DNA from: an uncultured delta proteobacterium
Lineage (GTDB): Bacteria > Desulfobacterota > Binatia > Binatales > Binataceae
DNA: 64,000 nt
Assembly: GCA_963734845.1 (NCBI GenBank)
Contig: CAVTIS010000004.1
Coordinates: forward strand, 158,364-222,363
Direction: 5' to 3'
Numbering within the stretch: position 1 is the first letter of the stretch; the number at the start of each line of letters is the position of its first letter. This document shows positions 9,093 through 26,056 of this stretch, piece by piece. The notes under the pieces were generated by a model, which had not been told where the DNA came from, searched no databases, and worked only from the letters and a program-made list of their open reading frames with translations. The translations under genes were made by a program, and so were the position numbers.

Positions 9093-9445
9093 TCAATGTT
9101 GATGCTGATGCGGAGTGAAGCGGCGCTCGCGCGAGGCGCCGAAGGAGTTGCCCTCGAACTCGACCTGGACGCATTGGCCGCTACGCCAATCGAGATCGAG
9201 CAGCAGAAACCGGACCGCGCGCCGCTTGACCGCCTCAACGAGCGAGGCCACCTGGGCCGGATCGGCGGGGTCGATCGCTCCGGTCTCGGCGGCGTCGAGG
9301 TGGCTCGCGGCGACGAACTCGCGCGCGCGCTCGTCGCTCGAAAATCCGAGCACCCCGGCCCAGTGCGTACCCTCTTCCTGGTAGACAATCAGCGCGCCCG
9401 AGGAATCGAGCAGCAGATGCAGTTCCTTTGCGGCGAGCGCGCTCA
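9093..9445 (-). CDS. hypothetical protein (about 117 aa)
   Basis: only the C-terminal about 117 aa of track ORF 9093..9818 looks protein-like (LLLDSSGALIVYQEEGTHWAGVLGFSSDERAREF...); probable TTG start overlapping the stop of the upstream gene. Confidence 0.4.
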
Positions 9446-15476: not shown

Positions 15477-15611
15477 CTCATACTTATTATCTTGGCGCTC
15501 GTTCTCTTATCGCGCCGGCCATCGCGAGAGATCAAGCCGGTTGCCAAGCGGAGAAGGTTCCGGCTAACGATTCATCGGACGACTCAAAACCTGGAAAGGA
15601 CGTGATACGCG

Positions 15612-16592: not shown

Positions 16593-17348
16593 TTACGCCG
16601 GCGGCGCCGGCGTGGCCTCGCCGCCCGGCGGCTTCAGCATGCCGAAGAATCCGCGGATACGGTTGTAGTTCACGCCGAAGTCGCCGGTGCCGTCGCGCGA
16701 GCGCGAGCGCATCTCGACCAGGCTGCTGTTAGGGTCAGGCCCCGGACGCACCTGGATCACGAAATCGTCGCGAAAGCGGAACAGGTTGGAGGTCTCGACG
16801 CCCTCGATCGTGCGCGTCGCCGGATCGGTGAAAACGATCAGCCATCCCGGCATCGTGTTCGCCGCGGCCCGCACCTTGAGCAACGCGTCGTCGGGCTTCT
16901 CGTCGAGCCGCAGCGGATCGAGCTTCGGGTAGTCCTTGCTTTGTACCGGCTCGAACTTGGCGCGGTCGTACTTCATCGAGTCGGGTGACAAGTTCGGTGG
17001 TTTGACGAACTCCGGCGGATTTTCGTAGTCCGTGGTGATGTCGTTGATCTCCGGATAGGGCATCGACATCCAACGCCACATCGTGAATCCGACCGGCACG
17101 GCGATCAGCAAGCCGAGCACCAAACCGGCGATAGCCTTGGGCCTTCCGACCCTGCGCTCGGGCGCAGAGGTGCGCAGCAGGCCGATTAGTCCGAACAGCA
17201 GCGCCAGGACCGCGAGTGCGAAGCTGAGCAGAAACGCCAGGAAGCCGGTCATCGGCGGGACCATGCCAAGATGCGCGCCCACGACGCCAATTCCCACCAG
17301 CAGCAGGGCGAGTATCGCGTTCATGATGGAGAGCCAGGCAGTGATCAT
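16593..17348 (-). CDS. DUF1499-domain membrane protein
   Basis: N-terminal TM helices; C-terminal DFVIQVRPGPDPNSSLVEMRSRSRDGTGDFGVNYNRIRGF resembles DUF1499. Confidence 0.5.
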   Translation of the reverse strand: MITAWLSIMNAILALLLVGIGVVGAHLGMVPPMTGFLAFLLSFALAVLALLFGLIGLLRTSAPERRVGRPKAIAGLVLGLLIAVPVGFTMWRWMSMPYPEINDITTDYENPPEFVKPPNLSPDSMKYDRAKFEPVQSKDYPKLDPLRLDEKPDDALLKVRAAANTMPGWLIVFTDPATRTIEGVETSNLFRFRDDFVIQVRPGPDPNSSLVEMRSRSRDGTGDFGVNYNRIRGFFGMLKPPGGEATPAPPA

Positions 17349-17534: not shown

Positions 17535-21077
<3,543 letters not shown>

Positions 21078-21115: not shown

Positions 21116-23212
21116 TCAGGCGCGACGGCGGCGGATTTCGCACGCGCGCGGGAATTCGATGGTGAAAGTCGAGCCCTCGCCCTTGCGGCTGGTGGCGGAG
21201 ATACGCGCGCCGCCGAGTTCGACGCACTTGCGCGCGAAGGCCAGCCCCAGTCCCGCGCCCTCGAAGCGCCGGCTATGGCCGGTCTGCTCCTGCGAGAACG
21301 GCTCGAACAGCCGCGGCAGGTAGTCGTTGTCGATACCGATGCCGGTATCGCGGACCTCGAGTTTCAGCGTGCCGGTGTTGTCGCGATCGAGCCCGAGGAC
21401 GATCTCGCCGCGGTCGGTGAACTTGATCGCGTTTTGCAGCAGGTTGGTCAGCGCGGTTTGCAGGCAGAATTCGTCGAAACGAATGGTGGCTTCGGTCTCC
21501 GCGATTTCGAGTCGCAGCTTGAGCCCCTTTTCGTCGGCCAGCACACTGAGATCGTTGGCCTGGTCCTCGATAAACGGGGCGAGCGCGATCGCTGAAGGAT
21601 TAAGCGCCAGCGCTCCGGCTTCCAGCCGCGAGTAGTCGAGGATCTGCTGGATAGTGGTCAGCAGGCGGCGCCCGGCGCGCCCGAGCGCTTCGAGATAGGT
21701 GTCCTGAGTATGGTCGCCGATATTGGCCAGATGCTCGCCGACCAGATCGGTGTATCCCAGGATGACATTGAGTGGCGTGCGAATTTCATGGCTGGTATTG
21801 GCTAGGAAGGCGGACTTCAGGCGTGTCGATTCCAGTGCGGCGTCGCGCGCGCTGGCGAGTTCGATATCGGCCGCGCGGCGCTCGGTGATGTCGCGGAGCA
21901 CCGTCACTACCCGCGGCCCGACACCCAGATCGACCATCACCGCGGAGAGCAGGGTGGGCACGGTCCGGCCGTCACGCGTGCGCAGGTCGGCCTCAAAACT
22001 GTTTACCGCTCCGCGCTCGAGGAGCTCGCGCCCGAAACGCCGATACTCCGCCGAATCCACGAAGAGCGCGAGCTCACGCGGATCTTTGCCCAACGCCTGC
22101 TCGCGGCTGTGGCCATAGACGCGGCTGAACGCGCTGTTGACGTCGACGGTTCGGCCGTCACCTGGGGTTGCGATCACGATCGCGTCCTGGCCGCTATCGA
22201 AGATGCCGCGAAAGCGCCGCTCGCTTTCGCGCAGATCCTCCAGCATCCTTTCGCGCGCGCTGACGTCGCGCGCGTTTCCTACCAGGCATCGCGCGCCCTT
22301 GATGTCGAGCACGGGGCGAGCGTTCCACTCCAGCACCCGCCACGAGCCGTCCTTGTGGCGGATTCGGGAGTGCAGCATCCGCTCTTCTGCGCCCTGAAGG
22401 ACAATGTGGCGCAGGTTGTCGCCAACCGCCTCGCGCTCGTCGGGATGGCATAAATCAAGCGCGCTCTTGCCGACTAACTCCTCGCCTTTGTAGCCAAGAA
22501 TCCTTTCTATGGAAGCGCTGACGAACTGGAACCTGTGATCCATATCCATGACCACTACGAGATCGCTGGTGTTTTCAATGAGTGAACGGAAGTAGCGCTC
22601 GCTCGCGCGCAACTCGCGCTCGCTCTGGCTCTGTCGGATAGCCAAACCCAGAATGTTGGCGACCGACTGGAGAAAATTCACCTCGTCATGGCTGTATTGA
22701 CGTTCCTGCCGATGATGGGCCGAGAGCACACCGTAGGGCCGGTCGCGGCCGTGAATTACGATCGTCACGCCACTGCGCAGGCCGCACTGCTCCGCGATGG
22801 CGCTTTGCAGGCGCCGCTCGCTGCTGAAGTCTGTCACGACCACGGGAGCGTTGACCAGCAAAGCATAGCCGGCGTGCGAACGAGCGCCCGCCTCCGCGAT
22901 CATGGCTCGCACCACGTCCGGTTCCCATCCGGCGCCGGCCCGGCCGATCAGGGTCTCGCGGTCCGGGCGCAACTCGGTCACCGTGGCATAGTCAATTCGC
23001 AAGGTCTGACGGACCAGGCGGGTGGCTTCTTCGAACAATTGCTGCGGGTCGCCGCCAATCAGCGCGTGTTGGCTGAGCGAGGCTACGACCGACTGCTGAA
23101 GAGCATAGTCGTCGCGAGAAACGGTGGCATCGCCCAAGCTCTTGTCGACCATCGCCGCGTCGCCCGCGTGCGATGATCGAATGGCAGTAGGAACGTTATT
23201 GACCTGCGCCAT
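21116..23212 (-). CDS. sensor histidine kinase with GAF and tandem PAS domains
   Basis: HisKA H-box NTSHEIRTPLNVILGY; HATPase G-boxes DTGIGI and GAGLGLA; upstream GAF/PAS-like segments; start set at MAQVNN. Confidence 0.8.
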   Translation of the reverse strand: MAQVNNVPTAIRSSHAGDAAMVDKSLGDATVSRDDYALQQSVVASLSQHALIGGDPQQLFEEATRLVRQTLRIDYATVTELRPDRETLIGRAGAGWEPDVVRAMIAEAGARSHAGYALLVNAPVVVTDFSSERRLQSAIAEQCGLRSGVTIVIHGRDRPYGVLSAHHRQERQYSHDEVNFLQSVANILGLAIRQSQSERELRASERYFRSLIENTSDLVVVMDMDHRFQFVSASIERILGYKGEELVGKSALDLCHPDEREAVGDNLRHIVLQGAEERMLHSRIRHKDGSWRVLEWNARPVLDIKGARCLVGNARDVSARERMLEDLRESERRFRGIFDSGQDAIVIATPGDGRTVDVNSAFSRVYGHSREQALGKDPRELALFVDSAEYRRFGRELLERGAVNSFEADLRTRDGRTVPTLLSAVMVDLGVGPRVVTVLRDITERRAADIELASARDAALESTRLKSAFLANTSHEIRTPLNVILGYTDLVGEHLANIGDHTQDTYLEALGRAGRRLLTTIQQILDYSRLEAGALALNPSAIALAPFIEDQANDLSVLADEKGLKLRLEIAETEATIRFDEFCLQTALTNLLQNAIKFTDRGEIVLGLDRDNTGTLKLEVRDTGIGIDNDYLPRLFEPFSQEQTGHSRRFEGAGLGLAFARKCVELGGARISATSRKGEGSTFTIEFPRACEIRRRRA

Positions 23213-23402
23213 AAGTCGCCTGGTCACCGCACGCCTTTTGCAATTGTTACCTACGTTACTCTTTAGCCCAGCATAAGCAAGCACGCAAAGGAGCGACGGT
23301 TTCGTTCTTTGGCGGAGACGCTATTCGCTCGACGCTCGAGGCCTCAACCGTGGCACCGGCATCGCCGGTCCGCTTCTCTCGGCTTGACGCTCGCGCGAGC
23401 CG

Positions 23403-23421
23403 GATGATAATAATTATCATC
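23403..23421. promoter_or_regulatory. Fur/PerR-type operator (perfect 19-bp 9-1-9 palindrome)
   Basis: GATGATAAT-A-ATTATCATC, an AT-only perfect palindrome in a GC-rich genome, about 100 bp upstream of the rubrerythrin ATG. Confidence 0.6.
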
Positions 23422-23523
23422 TGGCCGGGCGAGCAAAATCACTTTAGAAAGCGCCGCGGCGACGCGCCGCGCGAGCTGCGCCGCCGGCCATTAACCGCGC
23501 ATACGCTCAGGGAGAGAGCAACA

Positions 23524-23940
23524 ATGAACAATCTGAAAGGAACCAAGACACACGCCAACCTTAAGGATGCCTTTGCCGGCGAGAGCCAGGCCAATCGGCG
23601 CTACCTGTACTTTGCCAAGATTGCCGACGTGGAGGGCCAGCCGGAAATCGCAGGGCTCTTCCGCGATACTGCGGAGGGCGAGACCGGGCACGCTCACGGC
23701 CATCTCGACTATCTCAAGCAGGTCGGCGATCCGGCCACTGACCAGCCGATCGGCGACAGCATGCTCAATCTAAAGTCGGCCGTCCACGGCGAGACCTACG
23801 AGTATACGAACATGTATCCCGGGATGGCGAAGACCGCTCGCGAAGAGGGTTTTACGGAGATCGCCGACTGGTTCGAGACTCTGGCCAAGGCCGAGAAGTC
23901 GCACGCCGGTCGCTTCCAGAAAGCCACCACTACGCTTTAA
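23524..23940 (+). CDS. rubrerythrin-family diiron protein (no rubredoxin domain)
   Basis: ferritin-like diiron ligand motifs E..GE...[25 protein letters not shown]...EEG; RBS GGGAGAGAG before the ATG at 23524. Confidence 0.8.
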
Positions 23941-24120: not shown

Positions 24121-25467
24121 ATGGAACGTATCCAGTCGCGACCGACCGACGCTCTTTCGTACAATCAAAACGAGCCCAAGTACTGGGATCGCGCGGCCCT
24201 CGACCAGGAAATCGAGCGCGTGTTCGACATCTGCGCGGGCTGTCGGCTGTGCTTCAACCTGTGCCCGTCGTTCCCGGAGCTGTTCGGGGCGCTCGATAGC
24301 GGCGACGGCGACGTGCGCAGCCTGAGCGCGGCGCACAAGCAACGCGTGATCGATCTGTGTTACGGCTGCAAGCTGTGCGAGGTGCGATGCCCATACACGC
24401 CGCACGACGGCCACGAGTTCCAGCTCGACTTCCCGCGCCTGATGCTGCGGGCGCGCGCGGTCGAAGGCCGCGAACAGGGAATCGGCATGCGCGAAAAGAT
24501 GCTGGGCAATCCGGACCGCCTGGGCAAGGTCGGGAGCATTGTGCCGAAGCTCGCCAATTGGGCCTGCCGCAGCCCTTTTCAGCGCGCGATGATGGAGAAG
24601 ATGCTCGGCATCTCGCGCGCCAAGCAACTGCCTGAGTTTGCCGGCGAAACCTTCGACGCGTGGCTACAGCGCACGGGAATTCCGGCCGCGCCGGCCGAGC
24701 CCGCGGCCAAGGTCGCCATCTTTCATACCTGCTTCGTCAACTACTACAATCCGGCGCCCGGGCGCGCGCTGGTCTCGGTGCTGGCCCGCAATCGATGCTC
24801 GATGGCGTCGCCGGCGCAGAACTGCTGCGGGATGCCGGCGCTGGACGGCGGCGACGTCGCTTTTGCGCAAAAGCTCGCGCGCGCCAACGTGGCCTCGATG
24901 CTGCCGCTGGTGCGCCAGGGCTATCGCATCGCCGCGATCAATCCGACCTGCTCGCTGATGATGCGCGCGGAATATCCGGACCTGCTCGATACCGCCGAGG
25001 GGCGCGAGCTCGCTGCGGCGGTCGTCGACCCGCACGAGCTGCTCTATGCGCTCCGGCGCGAGGGCAAATTTGACCGCGATTTTCGCACCACGCCGGGCAA
25101 GGTCGCCTATCACGTGCCGTGTCATCTCAAGGCCCAGAACGTGGGCCTGCGCTCGCGCGATCTTATCCGATCGATCCCGGGCGCGGAGGTCGTGACGGTG
25201 GACGCCTGCACGGCTCACGACGGCACCTGGGCGATGAAGAGGGAGTTTTTCGAGCTGTCGATGAAGTGGGGAGCGAAGGCCTTCGCCGGAATGAAGGACG
25301 CCGAAGCGCAGGTGTTGGCCACCGACTGTCCGCTCGCCGCGATCCAGATCGAGCAGGCCATCGGCGTGCGCCCGCTCAACCCGGTCGAGATTCTGGCGCG
25401 CGCTTACGAGGCCGACGGCTTCGCCGCGCCAGTGCCGCCGCCGGAGCCGCCCGCCGTCGAGGAGTGA
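24121..25467 (+). CDS. Fe-S oxidoreductase with two 4Fe-4S ferredoxin motifs and CCG domains (GlcF/GlpC/HdrD-like)
   Basis: CAGCRLCFNLCP and CYGCKLCEVRCP (CxxCxxCxxxCP); C-terminal Cys-rich CCG segment (NCCGMPA). Confidence 0.7.
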   Translation: MERIQSRPTDALSYNQNEPKYWDRAALDQEIERVFDICAGCRLCFNLCPSFPELFGALDSGDGDVRSLSAAHKQRVIDLCYGCKLCEVRCPYTPHDGHEFQLDFPRLMLRARAVEGREQGIGMREKMLGNPDRLGKVGSIVPKLANWACRSPFQRAMMEKMLGISRAKQLPEFAGETFDAWLQRTGIPAAPAEPAAKVAIFHTCFVNYYNPAPGRALVSVLARNRCSMASPAQNCCGMPALDGGDVAFAQKLARANVASMLPLVRQGYRIAAINPTCSLMMRAEYPDLLDTAEGRELAAAVVDPHELLYALRREGKFDRDFRTTPGKVAYHVPCHLKAQNVGLRSRDLIRSIPGAEVVTVDACTAHDGTWAMKREFFELSMKWGAKAFAGMKDAEAQVLATDCPLAAIQIEQAIGVRPLNPVEILARAYEADGFAAPVPPPEPPAVEE

Positions 25468-25471
25468 AACC

Positions 25472-26056
25472 GTGAAACCGATAACTCCCCCCGAAGTACT
25501 GCCGGTTACGACCTATGACCGCGTGCGGCCCCTGCTGCGCCCACTATGCATCGCCGAAAAGACGCGCCGTCGCCTCGCCGTCGGTCCTCATCTCACGCTG
25601 ATGTTCGAAAACCGTCAGACGGTCTGGTACCAAATCCAGGAAATCCTGCGCACCGAGCGCATCTTCGAGGAGGCCGCGGTCAACGCCGAGGTCGAGACCT
25701 ATAACGAACTTCTGCCGCGCCCGGGCGAACTCTTTGCCACCCTGCTCATCGAGTATGCGGACCCGGCCGAACGCGACGTCGAGCTTGCCCGCCTGGTGGG
25801 TCTGGAGCGCCATTTGTGGATCGTTCTTGACGGACGCCGCGTCGGCGCCCGCTTCGATGAACGCCAAATGTCGCCGGATCAGATAAGCGCGGTGCAGTTC
25901 ATCGCTTTTCCGCTGGGCGCGGAAGCCGGCCGTTTTGGAGAGCTGGCGGCAGTCGGCAAGGCCGCAATCGAAGTTGACCATCCGCATCTCTCCGTCACGG
26001 CTCCAATTGAAGGCCCACTCGCAGAGGCGCTTAGCGACGATCTGCGCCCCGATTAG
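25472..26056 (+). CDS. DUF3501-like uncharacterised protein
   Basis: about 190-aa protein immediately downstream of the CCG Fe-S gene on the same strand; DUF assignment is from memory of family context and is uncertain. Confidence 0.35.
   Translation: MKPITPPEVLPVTTYDRVRPLLRPLCIAEKTRRRLAVGPHLTLMFENRQTVWYQIQEILRTERIFEEAAVNAEVETYNELLPRPGELFATLLIEYADPAERDVELARLVGLERHLWIVLDGRRVGARFDERQMSPDQISAVQFIAFPLGAEAGRFGELAAVGKAAIEVDHPHLSVTAPIEGPLAEALSDDLRPD

What the first reader, a model, noticed from the sequence alone, without database searches (positions are those of the whole stretch)
23403..23421. Perfect 19-bp AT-only palindrome with Fur/PerR-box architecture upstream of rubrerythrin
GATGATAAT-A-ATTATCATC is a perfect 9-1-9 inverted repeat built from GAT/AAT hexamer-like units, the classical Fur-box layout. 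Its presence in a GC-rich genome is very unlikely by chance. It sits about 100 bp upstream of a rubrerythrin gene, a typical PerR/Fur target.
Basis: partly seen in the sequence, partly recalled or inferred. Interest (0 to 1): 0.55.

Follow-up and report, generated by a model that had tools for sequence, protein, structure and literature searches.

The report
Fur-family repressor site at rubrerythrin promoter
The palindrome is real and is very probably the binding site of a peroxide-sensing (PerR-type) Fur-family repressor that sits on the promoter of a peroxide-detoxifying rubrerythrin operon; this is a well-supported but ordinary kind of bacterial gene switch.

Summary
GATGATAATAATTATCATC at 23403-23421 is a perfect 9-1-9 palindrome. 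It is 15/19 A+T, not "AT-only". Its core is an exact match to the Fur-type 7-1-7 box TGATAATnATTATCA, expected about 8e-6 times per window.

It overlaps the -10 hexamer of a strong sigma-70-like promoter (TTGACG-16-GATAAT). That promoter drives a three-gene operon: single-domain "aerobic-type" rubrerythrin, a CCG Fe-S oxidoreductase (RFO) and DUF3501.

The source looks like Candidatus Binataceae. In relatives chosen by protein similarity alone, the same -35/operator module is kept at 17-18 of 18 positions while surrounding DNA diverges.

In most relatives the module sits directly in front of a Fur-family gene that heads the same operon. That regulator has the PerR-type metal site (H37/D85/H91/H93/D104) and an Arg at the DNA-reading position, which fits a Fur-type box.

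The window belongs to a clade where this gene is absent from the operon but the operator is intact. No Fur-family gene lies in the 64 kb, so the regulator here is inferred to act in trans.

This is a new member of a known kind (perR-rbr regulation), of modest interest.

The parts
23384..23389 (+). -35 hexamer TTGACG of the rubrerythrin-operon promoter
   Evidence: Consensus scan gives TTGACG-16-GATAAT, 10/12 matches. TTGAC is invariant at the same spacing in 10 class-2 loci and is present in the class-1 loci.
23406..23411 (+). -10 hexamer GATAAT, lying inside the left arm of the palindrome
   Evidence: The same arrangement occurs in L002 at 9425-9430.
23403..23421 (.). Operator: perfect 9-1-9 palindrome GATGATAAT-A-ATTATCATC. 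Its core at 23405-23419 is TGATAATAATTATCA, the 7-1-7 Fur-type box. An imperfect extension covers 23399-23425.
   Evidence: Conserved at 17-18/18 positions in relatives chosen by protein homology. The central base varies A/T.
23418..23523 (+). Predicted 5' leader, with the transcription start inferred about 7 nt after the -10 (about 23418). It contains the Shine-Dalgarno GGGAGAG at 23510-16.
   Evidence: Inference from promoter geometry and the sequence. Leader length varies from 112 to 181 nt among relatives. There is no Rfam family at gathering score and folding is unexceptional, z = 0.05.
23524..23940 (+). Single-domain ('aerobic-type', sulerythrin/ferriperoxin-like) rubrerythrin, 138 aa
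   Evidence: PF02915, E = 1.6e-29. The closest solved structures are single-domain rubrerythrins and sulerythrin, E about 1e-63 to 1e-56. Homologues are 138-139 aa.
24121..25467 (+). [quoted passage not shown]
   Evidence: Pfam CCG and Fer4 hits. NCBIfam GlpC scores just below its cutoff. The cluster is described in PMC5114695.
25472..26056 (+). DUF3501 protein, third gene of the conserved cluster
   Evidence: PF12007, E = 8.7e-55. See PMC5114695.

Best explanation
The palindrome is the operator of a Fur-family dimeric repressor. It is placed over the -10 hexamer and the predicted transcription start of the promoter for the rubrerythrin-RFO-DUF3501 operon.

The regulator is most likely the PerR-type protein that is encoded directly behind the same operator in most Binataceae relatives. 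In its metal-loaded form this protein would bind the site and block RNA polymerase. Peroxide would oxidise its Fe-binding histidines, releasing it and de-repressing the peroxidase system.

In the window's lineage the regulator gene is no longer in the operon, so it must act in trans.

Shown: the sequence, its overlap with the promoter, its conservation, and its linkage to a PerR-type gene in relatives.

Inferred: binding, repression, peroxide as the signal, and the existence of the regulator in this genome.
For: - **Box and promoter.** The core is an exact 7-1-7 Fur-family box overlapping the -10 of TTGACG-16-GATAAT.
- **Conservation in unbiased loci.** Eight lineages were picked by rubrerythrin or regulator protein homology, not by the motif. 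Window, L001, L002 and L201 keep 18/18 positions; L202, L203, L206 and L211 keep 17/18. All have TTGAC at the same spacing, while upstream DNA and leader diverge and carry indels.
- **Identical site before the regulator gene.** L002 carries the identical 19-mer and promoter 6 nt upstream of a 179-aa Fur-family gene, followed by rbr, RFO and DUF3501.
- **Linkage across phyla.** 20 of the 80 best rubrerythrin-orthologue loci have a Fur-family gene immediately upstream on the same strand, and none elsewhere within +/-10 kb.
- **PerR-type residues.** All 23 regulators aligned (10 Binataceae-like, 13 from other phyla) have H37/D85/H91/H93/D104, where E. coli Fur has Glu at the two acidic positions. 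20 of the 23 also show all four zinc-site Cys; L003 is cut short, and L044 and the Irr-like L078 lack them. The Asp at position 104 is the criterion used to separate PerR/Irr from Fur/Zur (PMC8638967).
- **Closest known relatives of the regulator.** Best NCBIfam models are PerR, the best solved structure is B. subtilis PerR 2fe3, and JGI names the homologues 'peroxide stress response regulator'.
- **DNA-reading residue matches the box type.** Binataceae regulators carry Arg at the B. subtilis N61 position, the Fur-box-reading residue (PMC8638967). Across phyla, Arg/Lys regulators go with xGAnAAT boxes and Asn regulators with TTAGAAT boxes.
- **Specificity of the site.** In about 274 kb of Binataceae-like DNA, the only sites within 2 mismatches are the ones at this operon, one per locus.
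- **Precedent.** perR-rbr operons with palindromes over the -10 are described in delta-proteobacteria (PMC545781).
Against: - No Fur-family gene lies in the 64-kb window, in L001 or in the other class-2 loci.
- Every close PerR-like orthologue whose context I examined sits next to rbr. No free-standing copy that could serve class-2 genomes was seen.
- The box matches the Fur consensus (14/14) better than the B. subtilis PerR box (12/14).
- The identical 19-mer serves as an ordinary Fur box before TonB-receptor and solute-binding-protein genes in other bacteria.
- No binding, expression or transcription-start data exist.
- The regulator scores below the curated cutoffs of all NCBIfam PerR equivalogs.
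Confidence: 0.68

Rival explanations
1. The site is read by the genome's housekeeping iron sensor Fur, not by a PerR-type protein. The iron-rich rubrerythrin/Fe-S system would then be placed under iron control. This could have followed loss of the operon-linked PerR gene in this lineage.
For: The box is a 14/14 match to the Fur-type 7-1-7 consensus and 15/19 to the E. coli 19-bp consensus quoted in PMC545781. The same 19-mer precedes TonB-receptor and solute-binding-protein genes elsewhere. No PerR-like gene is in the window or in other class-2 loci. In alpha-proteobacteria the orthologous gene is under the iron-responsive Fur-family protein Irr.
Against: Holo-Fur repression over a -10 element would switch an iron-using peroxidase off exactly when iron is plentiful, the opposite of the usual logic. 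In all class-1 relatives the identical site is paired with a PerR-type regulator. No canonical Fur gene or iron-uptake gene carrying this box was seen in about 274 kb of Binataceae-like DNA.
Confidence: 0.2
2. The AT-rich palindrome is only a promoter feature (-10 / extended AT tract that eases DNA melting), or a relic operator that no longer binds a regulator in this lineage.
For: The left arm contains the -10 hexamer. The regulator gene is missing from the operon here.
Against: The right arm ATTATCATC is not needed for a -10 element, yet it is kept perfectly in the class-2 clade members found independently of the motif (L001, L201). Their leaders differ from the window's by indels of up to about 70 nt. 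A relic site would decay at the rate of its flanks.
Confidence: 0.07
3. The palindrome acts as a nucleic-acid hairpin (RNA leader element, terminator or DNA cruciform), or it lies within coding sequence of the 196-aa ORF 23350-23940.
For: As single-stranded DNA the 27-mer folds at -8.9 kcal/mol, z = -7. Gene callers have produced proteins starting MIIIIIW from this stretch.
Against: The hairpin score follows trivially from the sequence being a palindrome. The predicted transcription start lies inside the palindrome, so it would not be transcribed whole. There is no T-tract, no GC stem, no Rfam family at gathering score, and the leader fold has z = 0.05. Rubrerythrin homologues are 138-139 aa, starting at MNNLKG with a Shine-Dalgarno 7 nt upstream. 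In relatives a separate gene occupies the upstream space.
Confidence: 0.03

Closest known systems
perR-rbr operons with a palindromic PerR operator over the -10 element (Desulfovibrio vulgaris perR-rbr-rdl, Geobacter perR-rbr-roo; Rodionov et al. 2004, PMC545781)
   Same: A Fur-family PerR-type gene heads a rubrerythrin operon. A palindrome sits in the promoter and implies autoregulation. This is exactly the class-1 architecture in Binataceae relatives.
   Different: The rubrerythrin here is the single-domain 'aerobic-type', partnered with RFO and DUF3501 rather than rubredoxin/Roo. The box sequence is Fur-type, unlike any of the delta-proteobacterial PerR motifs listed in that paper. In the window itself the perR gene is absent from the operon.
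Fur box (E. coli 19-bp GATAATGATNATCATTATC; B. subtilis 7-1-7 TGATAATnATTATCA, Baichoo & Helmann 2002, the latter from my own knowledge)
   Same: 14/14 identity to the 7-1-7 core and 15/19 to the 19-bp consensus. The site overlaps the promoter. The identical 19-mer precedes TonB-receptor and solute-binding-protein genes in other bacteria.
   Different: The target is a peroxide-detoxifying system, not iron uptake. The linked regulator in relatives has the Asp/Asp PerR-type metal site.
B. subtilis PerR and its box TTATAATNATTATAA (consensus as quoted in PMC545781)
   Same: The regulator's closest solved structure and best family models are PerR. It has the same five metal ligands and Cys4 zinc site, and the target is a peroxide-defence gene.
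   Different: The box differs at the two discriminating positions (G/C instead of T/A), giving 12/14. The regulator has Arg, not Asn, at the N61 position. This is the change that Caux-Thang et al. 2015 (title cited in PMC8638967) reported to switch PerR from the PerR box to the Fur box.
Irr / ICE (TTTAGAA-N3-TTCTAAA) control of rubrerythrin-like genes in alpha-proteobacteria (blr7895; PMC1698941, PMC3413700)
   Same: Orthologous single-domain rubrerythrin genes in alpha-proteobacterial loci L064, L078 and L079 carry TTAGAATnATTCTAA boxes and an adjacent irr-like gene. This is the same theme of a Fur-family repressor on this gene.
   Different: The box sequence, the regulator (no Cys4 site) and the signal (haem/iron) are all different. 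The window's box is not an ICE.
'Aerobic-type' rubrerythrin-RFO-DUF3501 cluster (Cardenas et al. 2016, PMC5114695); ferriperoxin (PMC3317640)
   Same: The regulated operon has exactly this three-gene content.
   Different: The term search of that paper found no occurrence of 'PerR' or 'operator', and the shown passages do not discuss a Fur-family regulator. The association in 20 of the 80 best orthologue loci is an addition.

Membership tests
Fur-family 7-1-7 operator (Fur-type box) | Inverted repeat matching TGATAATnATTATCA | tested here: met
   14/14 at 23405-23419. Expected about 8e-6 per window.
Fur-family 7-1-7 operator (Fur-type box) | Position overlapping the core promoter, so that binding excludes RNA polymerase | tested here: met
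   The -10 GATAAT (23406-11) lies inside the left arm, with -35 TTGACG 16 nt upstream. The same geometry is conserved in relatives. The promoter is predicted, not mapped.
Fur-family 7-1-7 operator (Fur-type box) | A Fur-family regulator is encoded in the same genome | tested here: inconclusive
   None in the 64-kb window. One is directly adjacent in class-1 relatives. The rest of the source genome was not available.
Fur-family 7-1-7 operator (Fur-type box) | Metal-dependent binding of the protein to the site | not testable with these tools
   Needs EMSA or footprinting.
Iron (Fur) regulon | Target genes act in iron acquisition and respond to iron | tested here: not met
   The target is rubrerythrin-RFO-DUF3501. 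No iron-uptake gene with this box was found in about 274 kb of Binataceae-like DNA.
PerR regulon | [quoted passage not shown] | tested here: not met
   12/14. The two discriminating positions are G/C (Fur-type). Compared by eye with the consensus quoted in PMC545781.
PerR regulon | The regulator has the PerR-type site (His37, Asp85, His91, His93, Asp104) and the Cys4 zinc site | tested here: met
   The five-residue site is met in all 23 rbr-linked regulators of relatives. All four Cys are present in the 10 Binataceae-like ones and in 20 of 23 overall. This was tested on relatives, not on the window's own unseen regulator.
PerR regulon | Targets are peroxide-defence genes, and the operator also precedes perR (autoregulation) | tested here: met
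   Rubrerythrin is the target. The operator lies 4-7 nt before the perR-like ATG in class-1 loci.
PerR regulon | De-repression by H2O2 | not testable with these tools
   Needs expression data.
Irr / ICE | TTTAGAA-N3-TTCTAAA motif | tested here: not met
   The window's core is TGATAAT-A-ATTATCA. ICE-like boxes occur only at the alpha-proteobacterial and some other orthologues.
Aerobic-type rubrerythrin cluster (RBR-RFO-DUF3501) | Rubrerythrin without a rubredoxin domain, plus a CCG Fe-S oxidoreductase, plus DUF3501, all co-oriented | tested here: met
   Pfam results. Definition in PMC5114695.

The most novel reading that the evidence does not exclude
The Binataceae regulator is a natural hybrid: a PerR-type peroxide sensor (Asp/Asp iron site) with a Fur-type DNA-reading head (Arg in the recognition helix). 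It uses a canonical Fur box, making it the natural counterpart of the engineered PerR N61R switch.

In the window's clade its gene has left the operon while the operator was kept. The site could therefore be shared with, or have been taken over by, the housekeeping Fur. That would couple peroxide defence to iron status through identity of the box.
Probability: 0.2. Interest if true: 0.5.

Novelty: new member of a known kind. Interest (0 to 1): 0.3.

Why it matters
It assigns a concrete regulatory switch to the widespread but poorly understood aerobic-type rubrerythrin-RFO-DUF3501 operon. It does so in an uncultured soil lineage (Binataceae). In a quarter of the 80 best orthologue loci across several phyla, this operon travels with its own PerR-type Fur-family regulator.

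The finding gives a testable operator/regulator pair for studying how Fur-family proteins divide Fur-type and PerR-type boxes between them. It also flags mis-called N-terminal extensions (MIIIIIW...) in database rubrerythrins.

It does not change the known principles of Fur/PerR regulation.

Tried and rejected
- **Fur-family gene in the window.** tblastn with E. coli Fur and B. subtilis PerR, and phmmer on all six-frame ORFs, found nothing.
- **Second site in the window.** Only a 3-mismatch match at 15478 (between the divergent DAO and luciferase-like genes) and an overlapping self-hit were found. This is at chance level, 0.4 expected.
- **Regulon extension.** About 274 kb of Binataceae-like loci held no further sites within 2 mismatches.
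- **Free-standing perR-like gene for class-2 genomes.** Every close orthologue context I looked up was next to rbr.
- **RNA element in the leader.** No Rfam hit reached gathering score, and the fold z-score was 0.05. Rejected.
- **perR remnant in the leader.** The alignment with L002 shows no convincing homology. Left open.
- **Divergent GAF-PAS histidine kinase as the replacement regulator.** It is absent in class-2 loci L146, L166 and L197, which keep the operator. Not required.
- **Extended palindromy of the flanks (up to 13-1-13).** It is perfect in some loci (L146, L177, L189) but inconsistent overall. Not pursued.
- **Wasted search.** One literature search on '7-1-7' returned only outbreak-metric papers.

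Full report
**1. The observation**

Positions 23403-23421 read GATGATAATAATTATCATC, a perfect 9-1-9 inverted repeat. With one mismatch the symmetry extends to 13-1-13 at 23399-23425.

The window is 60-68% G+C.

A perfect 9-1-9 palindrome is not remarkable in itself. The window has three, against 0.64 expected in Markov shuffles. The other two are GC-rich.

An AT-rich one never appeared in 200 shuffles. The expected number of exact matches to TGATAATnATTATCA is about 8e-6 per window. No shuffle matched the 19-mer within three mismatches.

The central 15 bp (23405-23419) are a 14/14 match to the Fur-type 7-1-7 box. That consensus is from my own knowledge of Baichoo & Helmann 2002, a paper that could not be opened. 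They match the B. subtilis PerR box TTATAATNATTATAA at 12/14. The 19-mer matches the E. coli Fur consensus GATAATGATNATCATTATC at 15/19. Both of those consensi are quoted in PMC545781.

**2. Local anatomy**

The site lies in a 311-bp gap between two divergent genes. One is a minus-strand GAF-PAS-PAS histidine kinase whose likely start is about 23212. The other is a plus-strand operon.

The only strong promoter-like match in the gap is TTGACG (23384-89), a 16-nt spacer, then GATAAT (23406-11). This scores 10/12. The -10 hexamer is therefore the inner part of the left arm. A transcription start about 7 nt downstream would fall in the right arm.

The downstream genes are:

| Gene | Coordinates | Evidence |
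|---|---|---|
| Rubrerythrin without a rubredoxin domain, 138 aa | 23524-23940 | PF02915, 1.6e-29; Shine-Dalgarno GGGAGAG 7 nt before the ATG |
| CCG / 4Fe-4S oxidoreductase, GlpC-like | 24121-25467 | Pfam CCG and Fer4 hits |
| DUF3501 protein | 25472-26056 | PF12007, 8.7e-55 |

This is the "aerobic-type RBR-RFO-DUF3501" cluster of Cardenas et al. 2016 (PMC5114695). Its biochemically studied relative is ferriperoxin, an NADPH/FNR-dependent peroxidase (PMC3317640). The closest solved structures are single-domain rubrerythrins and sulerythrin.

The 196-aa ORF 23350-23940 that runs through the palindrome ("RMIIIIIW") is a calling artefact. Homologues are 138-139 aa. Some database entries nevertheless begin MIIIIIW.

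The leader matches no Rfam family at gathering score and folds no better than shuffles. No Fur-family gene is found in the window.

**3. Relatives**

The rubrerythrin's closest homologues are named Candidatus Binataceae or Binatus.

*A related genome carries the regulator.* In L002, which has 91% identical rubrerythrin on a 1.97-Mb contig, the identical 19-mer sits behind the same TTGACG-16-GATAAT promoter. There it lies 6 nt upstream of the ATG of a 179-aa Fur-family gene. That gene is followed by rbr, RFO and DUF3501.

*Loci chosen by protein similarity all keep the module.* These are unbiased with respect to the motif.

| Loci | Positions kept (of 18) |
|---|---|
| window, L001, L002, L201 | 18 |
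| L202, L203-205, L206-210, L211 | 17 |

TTGAC sits at the same distance in all of them. The central base is A or T. DNA upstream of the -35 is unalignable, and the leader carries indels of up to about 70 nt.

Of about 35 loci with G+C of at least 0.55, about 24 are this operon. They fall into three architectures:

- **Class 1:** operator, then perR-like, rbr, RFO, DUF3501.
- **Class 2 (the window's type):** operator, a 110-180-nt leader, then rbr, RFO, DUF3501.
- **Class 3:** operator, then a fragmented DUF3501 gene beside thiD. This looks like a decayed operon.

The remaining high-GC hits and the many low-GC hits fall into two groups. Some are coding or chance matches. Others are ordinary Fur boxes in front of a TonB-dependent receptor (L094) and solute-binding proteins (L118, L175). 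The sequence itself is therefore indistinguishable from a canonical Fur box.

*Class 2 appears to have a single origin.* Class-2 rubrerythrins form one clade in a rough neighbour-joining tree. They share the synteny metH-(histidine kinase)-operator-rbr-RFO-DUF3501-GT4. The kinase is missing in three loci that still keep the operator. This points to a single loss or relocation of the regulator gene, with the operator retained.

*No further sites were found.* Across about 274 kb of Binataceae-like DNA, the only sites within two mismatches of the 15-mer are the ones at this operon, one per locus.

**4. The regulator**

Among the 80 best rubrerythrin-orthologue loci from species-representative genomes, 20 carry a Fur-family gene immediately upstream on the same strand. 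They come from Acidobacteriota, Myxococcota, Binataceae-like and alpha-proteobacterial MAGs. No Fur-family gene lies elsewhere within +/-10 kb.

All 23 regulators aligned have His37, Asp85, His91, His93 and Asp104 in B. subtilis PerR numbering. E. coli Fur has Glu at both acidic positions. The Asp at position 103/104 is the criterion used to separate PerR/Irr from Fur/Zur/Mur/Nur (PMC8638967, citing Parent et al. 2013).

All four zinc-site Cys are present in 20 of the 23, including all ten Binataceae-like proteins. L003 is cut short at its C-terminus. L044 and the Irr-like L078 lack them.

For the L002 protein:

- The best NCBIfam models are PerR (104 and 99 bits, against 70 for Bacillus Fur). 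All scores are below the equivalog cutoffs.
- The best solved structure is B. subtilis PerR 2fe3.
- JGI labels its close homologues "peroxide stress response regulator".

At the position of B. subtilis PerR Asn61 the Binataceae proteins have Arg (ATVHRTLE). PMC8638967 uses this Asn/Arg residue, with Asp103, to tell PerR-type from Fur-type regulators. It cites Caux-Thang et al. 2015, whose title states that an Asn-to-Arg change moves PerR from the PerR box to the Fur box. That a Fur-type Arg reads the G of the box is my recollection of that work. On this reading the Arg fits the G/C at box positions 2 and 14.

Across phyla the pairing between reading residue and box type holds as a trend:

| Reading residue | Loci | Box type |
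|---|---|---|
| Arg or Lys | L002, L003, L027, L050 and others | xGAnAAT-n-ATTnTCx |
| Asn | Myxococcota L043, L048, L059, L065; Irr-like L079 | TTAGAAT-n-ATTCTAA |

It argues that the adjacent regulator is the protein that reads the adjacent palindrome.

**5. Mechanism**

*Shown:* a perfect, conserved Fur-family-type operator centred on the -10 and start region of the rubrerythrin-operon promoter. In most relatives it is physically linked to, and precedes, a PerR-type regulator gene.

*Inferred:* the metal-loaded dimer binds and excludes RNA polymerase. H2O2 oxidises the iron-ligand histidines, as in B. subtilis PerR, the protein dissociates, and the peroxidase operon is de-repressed. In class 1 the regulator gene is de-repressed as well.

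*Inferred for the window:* the regulator acts in trans. The operator's right arm is not needed for a -10 element, yet it has stayed perfect throughout a diversified clade lacking the linked gene.

*Main rival:* the housekeeping Fur reads this canonical Fur box. This cannot be excluded without the rest of the genome.

**6. Comparison and novelty**

The closest known systems are the perR-rbr operons with palindromes over the -10 in Desulfovibrio and Geobacter (PMC545781). Next closest is Irr/ICE control of rubrerythrin-like genes in alpha-proteobacteria (PMC1698941, PMC3413700). I also see ICE-like boxes at the alpha-proteobacterial orthologues.

Three things differ here:

- The lineage is Binataceae.
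- The partner genes are RFO and DUF3501. The term search of the paper that defined the cluster found no 'PerR' or 'operator', and the passages shown do not discuss a Fur-family regulator.
- The box is Fur-type while the sensor is PerR-type with Arg in its reading head. This combination has been noted, without assigned function, for Leptospira Ffr2 (PMC8638967).

**7. Verdict**

This is a new member of a known kind. Interest is modest.

Noticed in passing
window 23350-23940; proteins P0007, P0010: The longest ORF reads through the palindrome ('RMIIIIIW'). Public protein entries for close homologues start 'MIIIIIW...'. These are mis-called N-terminal extensions of a 138-aa rubrerythrin whose true start is 23524.
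   Followed up: yes
L109, L169, L173, L181, L186 (metagenome contigs): The same promoter and 19-mer stand directly in front of a fragmented DUF3501 gene, divergent from thiD, with no perR, rbr or RFO. Class-1 loci L127 and L189 have thiD at the same place, so this looks like a decayed operon that kept its operator.
   Followed up: partly
L138:507-525 and gene 537-1394: The identical 19-mer lies 11 nt upstream of a heliorhodopsin gene (PF18761, 2e-91) on a 69% G+C contig. This may be a Fur-family-controlled heliorhodopsin.
   Followed up: no
L064, L078, L079 (alpha-proteobacteria); also L015, L025 (Leptospiraceae), L055, L071: Orthologous rubrerythrin genes carry TTAGAATnATTCTAA-type (ICE-like) palindromes. 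In the three alpha-proteobacterial loci an irr-like gene without the Cys4 site is also adjacent. ICE-like boxes outside alpha-proteobacteria are unexpected given PMC1698941.
   Followed up: partly
window 23389-23400: The promoter spacer GCTCGCGCGAGC is itself a perfect 12-bp GC palindrome. Its arm is also complementary to 23468-23476 in the leader. It is only partly conserved in class-2 relatives, and its meaning is unknown.
   Followed up: partly
window 16595-16613 and 19529-19547: There are two other perfect 9-1-9 palindromes: ACGCCGGCGGCGCCGGCGT, at the 3' end of the DUF1499 gene (between the convergent luciferase-like and DUF1499 genes), and CATCAACGGTCCGTTGATG, inside metH.
   Followed up: no
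window 21116-23212 (minus strand): An orphan GAF-PAS-PAS histidine kinase is divergent from the rubrerythrin operon. It is syntenic in most class-2 relatives but absent in L146, L166 and L197. No response regulator is adjacent.
   Followed up: partly
L002 9440-9447; L084, L119, L189, L203, L206, L211: In class-1 loci the perR-like ATG begins only 4-7 nt after the palindrome. With a start about 7 nt after GATAAT, the regulator mRNA would be nearly leaderless and lack a Shine-Dalgarno.
   Followed up: no
window 15478-15492: A weak Fur-like match, TCATACTTATTATCT (3 mismatches), lies in the gap between the divergent DAO-type oxidoreductase and luciferase-like monooxygenase genes. It is at chance level (0.4 expected).
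   Followed up: no
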